Below, piece after piece: positions 31,546-31,935 of a stretch of DNA of 64,000 bases. The DNA comes from a virus, in the IMG/VR virus record IMGVR_UViG_3300009506_000004, positions 1 to 64,000 of that record. One strand, given 5' to 3'. The notes below the pieces were generated by a model. The model ran no database searches. It was not told the origin of the DNA and worked only from the letters and a program-made list of their open reading frames with translations. The translations under genes were made by a program, and so were the position numbers. Positions within the stretch are counted from its first letter, which is position 1; the number at the start of each line of letters is the position of its first letter.

Positions 31546-31608
31546 TGGGCAAAGTTAACTAGAAAGGTAATTGTTGTCCTGAAAAGATAACCCTCTCTAT
31601 ACGGCCCA
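31546..31608 (-). ncRNA. Y RNA-like unit 5 (last in transcription order)
   Basis: TGGGCCGTATAGAGAGGGTTATC-loop-CCTTTCTAGTTAACTTTGCCCA. Confidence 0.8.
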
Positions 31609-31625
31609 TTATATTACTTAAAAAT

Positions 31626-31683
31626 TAGGCAAGTTAGTTGGAAAGGGATATTATTATGCCGATAACCCTCCCCAATCGGCCCA
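31626..31683 (-). ncRNA. Y RNA-like unit 4
   Basis: TGGGCCGATTGGGGAGGGTTATC-loop-CCCTTTCCAACTAACTTGCCTA. Confidence 0.85.
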
Positions 31684-31696
31684 TTATATTTTAAAA

Positions 31697-31763
31697 GAGG
31701 CAAGTTGTGTAAACGAAGTTTTGTTACATAAAATGAAATGTGATAACCGTTTACTTCGGCCTC
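31697..31763 (-). ncRNA. Y RNA-like unit 3
   Basis: GAGGCCGAAGTAAACGGTTATC-loop-TCGTTTACACAACTTGCCTC. Confidence 0.88.
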
Positions 31764-31780
31764 AAATATTAGTTAAAAGT

Positions 31781-31844
31781 TGGGTAAGTTGTGTAATAGG
31801 GTGTTAATCAATGTCAATTTGGATAACCCTATTACTCCGACCCA
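31781..31844 (-). ncRNA. Y RNA-like unit 2
   Basis: TGGGTCGGAGTAATAGGGTTATC-loop-CCCTATTACACAACTTACCCA. Confidence 0.85.
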
Positions 31845-31856
31845 TAAAAATTAAAA

Positions 31857-31935
31857 TGAAAGCAAGTTATTTAGTATGAAATATTAACAAAATATAAACC
31901 AATTCTTTATGATAATCATACTAATTCGGCTCTCA
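31857..31935 (-). ncRNA. Y RNA-like unit 1
   Basis: TGAGAGCCGAATTAGTATGATTATC-loop-TCATACTAAATAACTTGCTTTCA. Confidence 0.85.

What the first reader, a model, noticed from the sequence alone, without database searches (positions are those of the whole stretch)
31546..31935. Tandem array of five Y-RNA-like genes with conserved Ro-binding frame and variable loops, linked to phage Ro60
Seen: five 58-79-nt units separated by short A/T spacers. On the minus strand each reads roughly [stem]-(C/T)CG-[upper stem]-(G/A)TTATC-[variable loop]-[upper stem']-bulge-AACTT-[stem'], followed by a T-rich tail. Stem sequences differ between units but pairing is kept (GTAAACG/CGTTTAC, GTAATAGGG/CCCTATTAC, TTAGTATGA/TCATACTAA, TTGGGGAGGG/CCCTTTCCAA), so structure rather than sequence appears to be conserved. 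Known: the bulged-C CCGA/CUUG helix with a 3' bulge is the Ro60-binding site of Y RNAs, and characterised Ro-containing bacteria carry about one or two Y RNAs near rsr. Inference: this phage encodes a repertoire of interchangeable Ro60 RNA subunits whose loops could tether different proteins, act as guides or act as decoys.
Basis: partly seen in the sequence, partly recalled or inferred. Interest (0 to 1): 0.93.

Follow-up and report, generated by a model that had tools for sequence, protein, structure and literature searches.

The report
Five small Y RNAs beside phage Ro60
An uncultured marine-sediment phage carries five small RNA genes in a row that have the hallmarks of Y RNAs, the partner RNAs of the ring-shaped Ro60 protein encoded nearby; this is a large but otherwise ordinary example of a known and, as shown here, very widespread pairing.

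Summary
At 31544-31935 (minus strand) there are five 62-79-nt units. Each has a terminal stem with a bulged C (GGGC-C-GA / UU-GCCC), a 9-bp upper stem whose sequence differs between units but stays paired, a GGUUAUC motif, a variable 13-31-nt loop and a 5-nt 3' bulge ending AAC.

A covariance model built only from other phages' units finds exactly these five in the 129-kb genome. The same RNA type sits beside Ro60, on its strand, in 63 of 80 viral loci, 74 of 80 bacterial loci and 6 of 8 cultured-phage loci. It gave no hit in 119 TROVE-less genomes.

They are best read as Ro60-bound Y RNAs of the simple-hairpin class (YrlB/Yrn2, phiLo Yrl1/2). They are probably cut from one operon transcript that also carries two tRNA-shaped Ro ligands.

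Arrays of 2-6 Y-type units are common, so five is the high end rather than unique. The "repertoire of guides/tethers" idea is untested, because no RNA data exist.

A side result: related bacterial units pass Rfam's threshold for nematode stem-bulge RNAs.

This scan has noted similar phage Ro60-like/RNA arrays before, on other DNA.

Verdict: new member of a known kind, moderate interest.

The parts
31857..31935 (-). Mini Y RNA unit Y1 (79 nt match). Terminal stem GAGAGC/GCUUUC with a bulged C, upper stem UUAGUAUGA/UCAUACUAA, motif AUUAUC, 31-nt A/U-rich loop.
   Evidence: R3 46.2 bits, E 9.1e-10
31779..31846 (-). Mini Y RNA unit Y2 (68 nt). GGGU-C-GG / UU-ACCC, upper stem GUAAUAGGG/CCCUAUUAC, GGUUAUC.
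   Evidence: 58.7 bits, E 3.9e-13; Rfam RF01656 26.3 bits, sub-threshold
31695..31765 (-). Mini Y RNA unit Y3 (71 nt). GAGGC-C-GA / UU-GCCUC, upper stem GUAAACG/CGUUUAC, GGUUAUC.
   Evidence: 42 bits, E 1.2e-8; RF01656 24.9 bits
31624..31685 (-). Mini Y RNA unit Y4 (62 nt). GGGC-C-GA / UU-GCC, upper stem UUGGGGAGGG/CCCUUUCCAA, GGUUAUC, 13-nt loop.
   Evidence: 41.3 bits, E 1.9e-8; RF01656 28.1 bits and RF00019 Y_RNA 19.5 bits, both sub-threshold
31544..31610 (-). Mini Y RNA unit Y5 (67 nt). GGGC-C-GU / UUU-GCCC, upper stem UAGAGAGG/CCUUUCUA, GGUUAUC. It ends 6 nt before the ribosome-binding site (GGAG) of the next ORF.
   Evidence: 41.4 bits, E 1.8e-8
31938..32065 (-). tRNA-shaped RNA with acceptor, D and T arms. 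Its anticodon loop is replaced by a loop-capped Y-type helix (AACUUG ... GAGCCGA ... CGUUAUC). It ends 3 nt before Y1.
   Evidence: ARAGORN finds it only when a 57-nt insert is allowed
29984..30114 (-). Second tRNA-shaped RNA carrying a capped Y-type helix (…CUUAUCC-loop-GGAUCGA…GGGUUAUC) in place of the anticodon loop.
   Evidence: Rfam tRNA 51.1 bits with a 61-nt insert
28237..29802 (-). Ro60 gene (521 aa), the presumed protein partner.
   Evidence: Pfam TROVE 1.1e-45 and vWA_Ro60 3.3e-57. Closest solved structure is Xenopus Ro60 1YVP (429 bits), ahead of D. radiodurans Rsr 2NVO (362 bits).
32797..32824 (-). Consensus sigma-70-like promoter (TTGACA, 16 nt, TATAAT; 12 of 12). Likely start of the transcription unit.
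   Evidence: It is the only 12/12 site in 27800-33400. The total count of promoter-like sites is not above shuffles (26 against 22.3).
28017..28045 (-). Terminator-like hairpin (13 pairs followed by a T run) after Ro60 and a 58-aa ORF. Likely end of the unit.
   Evidence: it is the only minus-strand terminator-like site in the region
30154..31541 (-). Two co-oriented ORFs (82 aa and 380 aa) between the array and the second tRNA-shaped RNA. Their role in the system is unknown.
   Evidence: The 380-aa product matches phrog_200 'lipoprotein' at 1.2e-18 and has no Pfam hit.

Best explanation
The five units are genes for minimal Y RNAs, the small non-coding RNAs that bind the phage's own Ro60 ring.

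Shown by sequence analysis:
- Each unit has the two-strand Ro60-binding frame. This is a terminal stem with a bulged C, then a conserved G.U and A-U pair, and a 5-nt bulge on the 3' side ending AAC.
- Each has a covarying upper stem, a nearly invariant GGUUAUC and a free loop.
- This RNA type is tied to Ro60 genes in position and strand across phages and bacteria.

Inferred:
- All five are transcribed with two tRNA-shaped Ro ligands, two ORFs and Ro60 from the consensus promoter at 32824-32797.
- Host RNase P and RNase Z cut out the tRNA-shaped RNA at the head of the array. That would leave the 5' end of Y1 3 nt away.
- Host endonucleases cut the A/U-only spacers, and exonucleases trim back to the Ro60-protected stems.
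- Each mini-Y then sits on the outer face of Ro60 through the bulged helix. There it gates the central hole, and its single-stranded A/U-rich loop can recruit a host partner. The most likely partner is PNPase, through its KH/S1 domains, as shown for D. radiodurans Yrn1 and for the Thermus phage phiLo Yrl RNAs.
- The phage itself encodes no PNPase-type, RtcB or CCA-adding enzyme.

Whether the five loops mean five specificities or just five unconstrained copies is open.
For: Identity of the units: (structure, held-out detection, covariation).

Independent model. R3, trained on 50 units from other viral contigs, finds exactly these five in the whole genome.

Ro60 next door.

Linkage to Ro60 with model R3:
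- Viral loci: 156 hits in 63 of 80 loci, all on the Ro60 strand, 147 of 156 within 1 kb of the gene. Fifty of these hits were training data.
- Bacterial genome loci (independent set): 207 hits in 74 of 80 loci, 202 of them on the Ro60 strand.
- Metagenome loci: 91 hits, all on the Ro60 strand, in the 42 of 80 loci that I searched.
- Cultured-phage loci: 14 hits in 6 of 8.
- Model R2, trained on this window only, gave 87 hits in the 80 viral loci, all on the Ro60 strand.

Specificity:
- In three whole bacterial genomes (15.2 Mb) all 5 hits lie at the rsr locus.
- Of 121 genomes of one phylum, only the one with a strong TROVE match has a hit. There were 0 hits in the 119 without TROVE.

Strand-specific RNA signal. 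The pair after the bulged C is G.U in 45 of 49 distinct sequences. On the other strand it would be a C-A mismatch.

Family likeness:
- Rfam sub-threshold hits to the stem-bulge RNA family RF01656 for 3 of the 5 units, and to Y_RNA for 1.
- In 13 of 15 bacterial loci the short unit just upstream of rsr passes RF01656's gathering score, at 38.3-41.8 against 38.
- Long hits in relatives overlap weak YrlA (RF02553) matches, so the same helix carries YrlA-type domains elsewhere.

Published mechanism:
- Y RNAs are encoded beside Ro60 on the same strand and processed from polycistronic precursors together with tRNA. Each characterised species has at least two Y RNAs, and M. smegmatis YrlA is cut by RNase P (PMC4201824; abstract, section 5 and found passages read).
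- Phage phiLo Yrl1 and Yrl2, upstream of its Ro60 gene, bind that Ro60 and host PNPase (PMC12135203; abstract and found passages read).

Operon signals. No RtcB, RNase PH or PolyA_pol family in the phage.
Against: - There is no expression or binding data of any kind. No RNA run holds this DNA.
- The window's own units score below the gathering thresholds of all Rfam Y-type families: 24.9-28.1 against 38, and 19.5 against 38.
- The alignments used for pair counts were fitted to the model, and no R-scape-type test was run.
- The loops share no motif. The commonest 4-mer occurs in 30 of 122 loops. So the tether role for the loops is by analogy only.
- The T-run after the stem is not conserved in relatives: 12 of 50 downstream against 9 of 50 upstream, and 25 of 150 against 25 of 150.
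- The overall count of promoter-like sites is at chance level.
- The host is unknown, so whether it has PNPase, RNase E/Y or its own Rsr cannot be checked.
- One bacterial locus (L114) has its 5 hits on the opposite strand.
Confidence: 0.78

Rival explanations
1. The units are cis-acting parts of the operon mRNA and are not released as small RNAs. They would be Ro60-binding sites that let the protein regulate or stabilise its own transcript, or leaky stem-plus-U attenuators that set how much transcription reaches the downstream ORFs and Ro60.
For: They lie inside one putative transcription unit, between a consensus promoter and the Ro60 gene, and no terminator-like site is predicted between them. 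All five are followed by a T run in this phage. In relatives, 122 of 156 hits are upstream of Ro60 on the same strand.
Against: The T run is not conserved in relatives. In relatives, 34 of 156 hits lie downstream of Ro60, where they cannot attenuate it. Characterised Y RNAs in the same genomic arrangement are processed to discrete Ro60-bound RNAs (PMC4201824, found passages). The flanking tRNA-shaped RNA gives a ready processing site 3 nt from Y1.
Confidence: 0.1
2. The RNAs are decoys aimed at host factors rather than partners for the phage Ro60. Targets might be the host's own Rsr, PNPase or another RNA-binding defence protein, titrated by many copies of the handle.
For: The copy number is high: five plus two Ro-type helices. 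The phage has no RNA-repair or exonuclease genes of its own. The phiLo authors propose hijacking of host PNPase (PMC12135203, found passages).
Against: The tight linkage to a phage-encoded Ro60, also seen in bacteria, argues for a cognate protein-RNA pair. No host is known, so nothing can be said about host Rsr.
Confidence: 0.07
3. The units are structured repeats unrelated to Ro60, such as terminators, REP-like elements or decayed tRNA fragments, and their position near Ro60 is a coincidence.
For: The genome is AT-rich, the hairpins are short, and the folding z-scores are modest (-1.5 to -3.5).
Against: Models trained elsewhere find them specifically. The same motif set recurs beside Ro60 in hundreds of loci on the same strand, and was not found in 119 TROVE-less genomes. 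The unpaired motifs (bulged C, GGUUAUC, AAC) are conserved, which terminators do not need.
Confidence: 0.02

Closest known systems
Thermus phage phiLo Yrl1 and Yrl2 with phage Ro60 (PMC12135203; PDB 9KOP and 9L5Y as named in that paper)
   Same: Phage-encoded Y-RNA-like hairpins lie directly upstream of the phage Ro60 gene. They have a stem-bulge-stem shape with a CGA(A) motif. They were shown there to bind the phage Ro60 and host PNPase.
   Different: There are two RNAs there and five (plus two tRNA-shaped ones) here. The phiLo Ro60 is so diverged that it does not appear among the PDB sequence matches of this protein at E 0.001. I did not see the phiLo RNA sequences, so I could not compare the motifs directly.
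Simple-hairpin bacterial Y RNAs: S. Typhimurium and M. smegmatis YrlB, D. radiodurans Yrn2 (Chen et al. 2014, PMC4201824)
   Same: Ro60-bound RNAs that form one long hairpin with a small loop, without a full tRNA-like domain. They are encoded beside rsr on the same strand and made from polycistronic precursors together with tRNA or tRNA-like RNAs.
   Different: Those species have one such RNA each. The paper says only the 5' strand of the Ro-binding helix is recognisable in the Salmonella and Mycobacterium RNAs. Here both strands and GGUUAUC are conserved.
YrlA (Rfam RF02553)
   Same: It shares the G-N-CGA-A 5' strand of the Ro60-binding module and the linkage to Ro60. In relatives, the helix type modelled here encloses YrlA-like T-arm, closed acceptor and D-arm domains.
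   Different: The five units have loops of 13-31 nt and no tRNA-like domain. No RF02553 match at E 10 or better was found in 27500-33500. In this phage the tRNA mimicry is instead supplied by two RNAs with normal tRNA topology and a capped Ro helix.
Nematode stem-bulge RNAs (Rfam RF01656) and vertebrate Y RNAs (RF00019)
   Same: A lower stem with a bulged C and the CCG(A/G) ... AACUUG frame, an upper stem, and a UUAUC motif at the start of the loop. PMC4726728 describes UUAUC as conserved in stem-bulge and vertebrate Y RNAs. Bacterial relatives of these units pass RF01656's gathering score in 13 of 15 loci.
   Different: The window's units stay below that threshold. The loops are much shorter: the model's 65-nt loop region is nearly empty. 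The eukaryotic RNAs are separate RNA polymerase III genes. In eukaryotes the UUAUC motif is tied to DNA replication rather than to Ro60 (PMC4726728).

Membership tests
Y RNA in the functional sense (Ro60-bound small RNA) | 5' and 3' ends pair into a long stem that holds the conserved Ro60-binding helix with a bulged C | tested here: met
   All 5 units have the stem. The bulged C and the following G are present in 5 of 5 units, and in 50 of 50 and 49-50 of 50 related viral units.
Y RNA in the functional sense (Ro60-bound small RNA) | Encoded next to, and on the same strand as, a Ro60/TROVE gene | tested here: met
   Ro60 lies 1.7 kb downstream on the same strand. The same linkage is seen in 63 of 80, 74 of 80 and 6 of 8 loci. 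There were no hits in 119 TROVE-less genomes.
Y RNA in the functional sense (Ro60-bound small RNA) | Physically bound by Ro60 and dependent on it for stable accumulation | not testable with these tools
   This needs RIP, EMSA or a Northern blot. No RNA run holds this DNA.
Y RNA in the functional sense (Ro60-bound small RNA) | A second, variable module (loop) that differs between paralogues | tested here: met
   The loops are 13-31 nt and share no motif.
Rfam RF01656 (nematode stem-bulge RNA) / RF00019 (Y_RNA) | Score at or above the family's gathering threshold | tested here: not met
   Window units score 24.9-28.1 against 38 (3 of 5 units) and 19.5 against 38 (1 unit). Bacterial relatives do pass RF01656 in 13 of 15 loci.
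YrlA (Rfam RF02553) | tRNA-like domain (T arm, closed acceptor-like stem, D arm) inside the Y RNA loop | tested here: not met
   No RF02553 match at E 10 or better. The loops are too short. The five units are not YrlA.
YrlB/Yrn2-type simple hairpin Y RNA | One long hairpin with a small loop, co-transcribed with a tRNA-like Y RNA beside rsr | tested here: inconclusive
   The shape and the genomic context fit. Co-transcription is inferred only, and no sequence comparison with YrlB or Yrn2 was possible.

The most novel reading that the evidence does not exclude
Each mini-Y loop is a separate specificity module: a tether for a different host protein, or an antisense guide. Seven co-expressed RNAs would then reprogram one phage Ro60 ring into several different particles during infection.

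The only hint is that the Y2 loop has a 15-nt perfect complement inside a phage ORF. None of 200 shuffles reach that length, but five loops were tested.

A linked, more likely reading (about even odds) is that the bulged-C helix plus GGUUAUC is one ancient Ro60-RNA cassette shared by phages, bacteria and animals. In that case the 'replication' motif UUAUC of animal Y and stem-bulge RNAs would originally be a Ro60-linked feature.
Probability: 0.12. Interest if true: 0.8.

Novelty: new member of a known kind. Interest (0 to 1): 0.45.

Why it matters
Ro60 and its Y RNAs are a conserved RNA-surveillance particle whose role in phage infection is barely explored. In what I read, only the phiLo study addresses it.

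This locus is a compact natural test bed. It has one Ro60, five minimal Y RNAs that differ only in stem sequence and loop, and two tRNA-shaped ligands, all behind one promoter.

The wider survey done here has two further uses.
- It shows that multi-copy Y RNA arrays are the rule rather than the exception beside Ro60 in phages and many bacteria. It also shows that none is annotated in the eight cultured-phage records I opened, six of which hold model matches, including Streptomyces phages Karimac and Moab.
- It shows that the GGUUAUC motif and the two-strand helix typical of animal Y RNAs are conserved in prokaryotic and phage versions. This bears on a published statement that bacterial Y RNAs are not homologous to the animal ones (PMC4726728). 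It also offers a direct way to test what UUAUC does.

Tried and rejected
Expression data. The look-up of sequencing runs listed no RNA holder, only DNA runs of marine-sediment metagenomes that may be the source of this DNA. I did not lay reads, because contigs of the source sample would add nothing.

DNA-level relatives among deposited phages: no match.

A protein-only scan of viral contigs with the single Ro60 sequence gave one locus. The alignment-based scan was needed.

MAFFT alignment of the five units put three of them out of register for the upper stem. I therefore seeded a model from Y2 and Y4 and let Infernal realign.

T-rich tail as a conserved terminator or La-type signal: rejected. 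Relatives show T runs equally often upstream and downstream.

Each spacer as its own promoter: rejected. The spacers are too short, and the scan finds only weak 9-10 of 12 sites there.

Shared loop motif: none found.

Loop complementarity to the phage genome. Four of five loops are at or below the shuffle expectation. Y2 has a 15-nt match (0 of 200 shuffles) at about 111362 on the minus strand, inside a 191-aa open frame. I regard this as a weak lead.

RtcB, RNase PH/PNPase and CCA-adding enzyme families in the phage: none.

Literature.
- Two searches (Y RNA, Ro60, bacteriophage, YrlA; Y RNA, Ro60, phage, tandem) found no paper describing tandem arrays of Y RNAs in phages.
- Two reviews (PMC10870794, PMC6542706) are not held.

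Redundancy. Some metagenome loci duplicate viral loci (for example L179 and L004), so counts across collections are not additive.

In the large genome searches only part of the first-look candidates were scored.
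Full report
WHAT IS THERE

The window is the first 64 kb of a complete 129,439-bp viral record with direct terminal repeats. It has about 33% G+C and comes from marine-sediment metagenomes.

On the minus strand between 31935 and 31544 there are five hairpin units separated by A/T-only spacers. Read 5' to 3', each unit has:
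- a 4-6-bp terminal stem (GGGC or a variant)
- an unpaired C
- a G.U and an A-U pair
- one free base
- a 9-bp upper stem (one base shorter in Y3)
- the motif (G/A)UUAUC
- a loop of 13-31 nt
- the returning upper-stem strand
- five unpaired bases ending AAC
- UU(G/A) and the returning terminal stem

Each unit folds this way on its own, with z-scores of -1.5 to -3.5 against shuffles.

IS IT MORE THAN CHANCE?

- A covariance model seeded from Y2 and Y4 alone finds Y1, Y5 and Y3 at E 5.3e-6, 1.1e-5 and 3.7e-4. The next hits in the window are partial matches at E 1.8 and 8.3.
- On the model-made alignment of the five, 95.9% of cells are standard pairs. Shuffles give 76.6% and slid partners 49-56%. 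Eleven of 15 pairs change on both sides, and 0 of 500 shuffles reach this.
- RNAalifold predicts the same two helices: 14 pairs, 12 with compensatory changes.
- The strongest test is model R3. It was built from 50 units of other viral contigs and none from this window. It finds exactly these five in the whole phage genome, at E 3.9e-13 to 1.9e-8, and nothing else.
- A loose text pattern for the 5' half occurs 14 times in the genome. Seven of these cluster at 30045-32003 on the minus strand: the five units plus two more.

THE SURROUNDINGS

The ORF at 28237-29802 on the same strand is a full Ro60. Pfam gives TROVE at 1.1e-45 and vWA_Ro60 at 3.3e-57. By sequence it is nearer to Xenopus Ro60 (1YVP, 429 bits) than to D. 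radiodurans Rsr (2NVO, 362 bits).

The two extra copies of the motif lie inside tRNA-shaped genes at 31938-32065 and 29984-30114. These have normal acceptor, D and T arms. The anticodon loop is replaced by a Y-type helix written 3' strand first, closed by a small loop, then the 5' strand with GUUAUC. The first one ends 3 nt before Y1.

A perfect TTGACA-16-TATAAT promoter lies at 32824-32797. The only minus-strand terminator-like hairpin is at 28045-28017, after Ro60. One transcription unit of about 4.8 kb is therefore plausible, but this is inferred.

The phage has no RtcB, RNase PH/PNPase-type or CCA-adding enzyme family.

RELATIVES

The nearest Ro60 proteins in the large protein collection are about 60% identical. 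An alignment of 21 of them served to fetch 80 viral, 80 bacterial-genome and 80 metagenome loci.

- Model R2 was trained on the window's five units only. It gives 87 hits at E 1 or better in the 80 viral loci, every one on the Ro60 strand. The 50 hits at E 0.01 or better show 96.6% paired cells (shuffles 68.4%, slid 39-50%). The unpaired motifs are conserved: bulged C in 50 of 50, and UUAUC columns at 88-100%.
- Model R3 on the viral loci gives 156 hits in 63 of 80 loci, all on the Ro60 strand. Of these, 147 are within 1 kb of the gene, with 122 upstream and 34 downstream. Hits per locus: 0 in 17 loci, 1 in 13, 2 in 22, 3 in 17, 4 in 9 and 6 in 2. Fifty of these hits were R3's training data.
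- Independent sets:
  - 207 hits in 74 of 80 bacterial loci. 202 are on the Ro60 strand, and the 5 exceptions are all in one locus. There are up to 6 hits per locus.
  - 91 hits, all on the Ro60 strand, in the 42 metagenome loci I searched out of 80. Some of these duplicate viral loci.
  - 14 hits in 6 of 8 cultured-phage loci. These include two tandem units just upstream of Ro60 in Streptomyces phage Karimac. None of the eight records annotates such RNAs.
- Units of 90 nt or less number 111 of 156 in the viral loci and 92 of 207 in the bacterial loci. The longer units overlap weak YrlA (RF02553) matches, so they carry the tRNA-like domain inside the same helix.
- The largest number of short units in any one locus other than this window was four (viral) and three (bacterial). 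The window's five short units are therefore the biggest all-short array that I saw. Arrays of similar total size are ordinary.

SPECIFICITY FOR Ro60

In three whole bacterial genomes (15.2 Mb together), all five R3 hits at E 0.001 or better lie at the rsr locus.

In a sample of 121 genomes of one phylum, two have a TROVE match, one strong and one weak. Only the strong one has an R3 hit, and the 119 genomes without TROVE have none. Stricter filters applied in that search, and only part of the candidates were scored.

WHAT IT IS LIKE

Rfam gives sub-threshold matches of three units to the nematode stem-bulge RNA family RF01656 (24.9-28.1 bits against 38) and of one unit to Y_RNA (19.5 against 38). 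There is no YrlA match.

In 13 of 15 bacterial loci, the short unit directly upstream of rsr passes RF01656's gathering score, at 38.3-41.8 bits.

According to Kowalski and Krude (PMC4726728; found passages read), stem-bulge RNAs are homologues of vertebrate Y RNAs. [quoted passage not shown] Bacterial Y RNAs are said there not to be homologous with the vertebrate clades.

The prokaryotic and phage units found here share the bulged-C helix on both strands, the upper stem and UUAUC. UUAUC is present in 122 of 150 bacterial units and 39 of 50 viral units. The model selects for this motif, so these fractions are inflated. The RF02553 consensus shows the CGAA strand but no GGUUAUC.

PUBLISHED BACKGROUND

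Chen et al. 2014 (PMC4201824; abstract, section 5 and found passages read) report:
- 355 YrlA-like RNAs within 4 kb of Ro60, on the same strand, in 254 bacteria and 22 phages
- at least two Y RNAs in each of the three characterised species, one tRNA-like and one a simple long hairpin
- polycistronic synthesis together with tRNA

Wang et al. (bioRxiv 10.1101/312249; found passages read) point out that YrlA resembles a circularly permuted tRNA.

The phiLo study (PMC12135203; abstract and found passages read) shows two Y-RNA-like hairpins upstream of a phage Ro60 gene. These bind the phage Ro60 and host PNPase.

My two literature searches for phage Y RNA arrays found nothing more specific. The supplementary tables of Chen et al. 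could not be opened and may already list multi-copy loci.

This scan's own notes record similar arrays beside diverged Ro60-like genes in other phages. They also record the two tRNA-shaped RNAs and the operon view of this window.

HOW IT MOST LIKELY WORKS

Shown: the units have the sequence and covarying structure of Ro60-binding Y RNAs, and they belong to an RNA class that tracks Ro60 genes.

Inferred:
- Co-transcription from the consensus promoter.
- Release of the head tRNA-shaped RNA by RNase P and RNase Z, which frees the 5' side of Y1.
- Cleavage in the A/U spacers and trimming back to the Ro60-protected stems.
- Binding of each mini-Y to the outer face of Ro60, where it gates the cavity.
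- Recruitment of host PNPase or another single-strand-binding partner through the loop.

Nothing here shows that the five loops have five jobs. They share no motif. Only Y2 has an unusual complement elsewhere in the genome.

VERDICT

The feature is a new, large member of the known Ro60/Y RNA kind, of the simple-hairpin class, in an uncultured phage.

The more interesting by-products are at family level:
- how common multi-copy arrays are
- the conservation of the animal-type helix and UUAUC in phages and bacteria
- the un-permuted tRNA-shaped Ro ligands

Noticed in passing
window 31938-32065 and 29984-30114 (minus strand): Two tRNA-shaped RNAs with normal tRNA topology in which a loop-capped Y-type Ro helix replaces the anticodon loop. 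This is the un-permuted counterpart of YrlA. By a crude screen (ARAGORN with inserts allowed, plus a motif check), 24 similar candidates lie beside Ro60 in 19 of 80 viral loci.
   Followed up: partly
L087 2370-2481 and 2491-2558 (Streptomyces phage Karimac); L086 (Streptomyces phage Moab, six hits); L089, L082, L088, L084: Six cultured actinophages have Y-type units beside their 'Ro-like RNA binding protein' gene. No such RNA is annotated in the records.
   Followed up: partly
L116, L131, L122, L103, L104, L109 (Verrucomicrobiota MAG loci): The rsr gene and its Y RNA array are embedded in very large same-strand tRNA gene arrays, with well over ten Rfam tRNA hits per 9.6-kb locus.
   Followed up: no
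L115, L104, L107, L103, L096, L122, L109, L153, L131, L116, L099, L106 and others: The bacterial short Y RNA directly upstream of rsr passes the curated threshold of the nematode stem-bulge RNA family RF01656 in 13 of 15 loci. An automatic annotation would label these bacterial RNAs as nematode sRNAs.
   Followed up: partly
window 28237-29802: By sequence, the phage Ro60 is nearer to Xenopus Ro60 (429 bits) and to another RO60 entry (9NEN, 418 bits) than to D. radiodurans Rsr (362 bits). The phiLo phage Ro60 does not appear at E 0.001.
   Followed up: no
G000 about 111348-111362, minus strand (outside the window): A 15-nt perfect complement of the Y2 loop lies inside a 191-aa open frame. None of 200 shuffles reach this length, and five loops were tested.
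   Followed up: partly
window 29810-29983: An untranslated stretch between the second tRNA-shaped RNA and the Ro60 start codon. I saw only a plus-strand terminator-like hairpin at 29891-29911.
   Followed up: no
window 26495-28062: Directly downstream of the Ro60 unit there is a Bac_transf sugar transferase (2.7e-60) and a weakly Wzz/GNVR-like protein.
   Followed up: no
L083 4998-5419 (Gordonia phage Sixama): An Rfam tmRNA match (88.1 bits) lies just downstream of the Ro60 gene, in a gap of the record's feature table.
   Followed up: no
L114 5629-7844: This is the only locus among those searched where the Y-type hits (five) lie on the strand opposite to Ro60.
   Followed up: no
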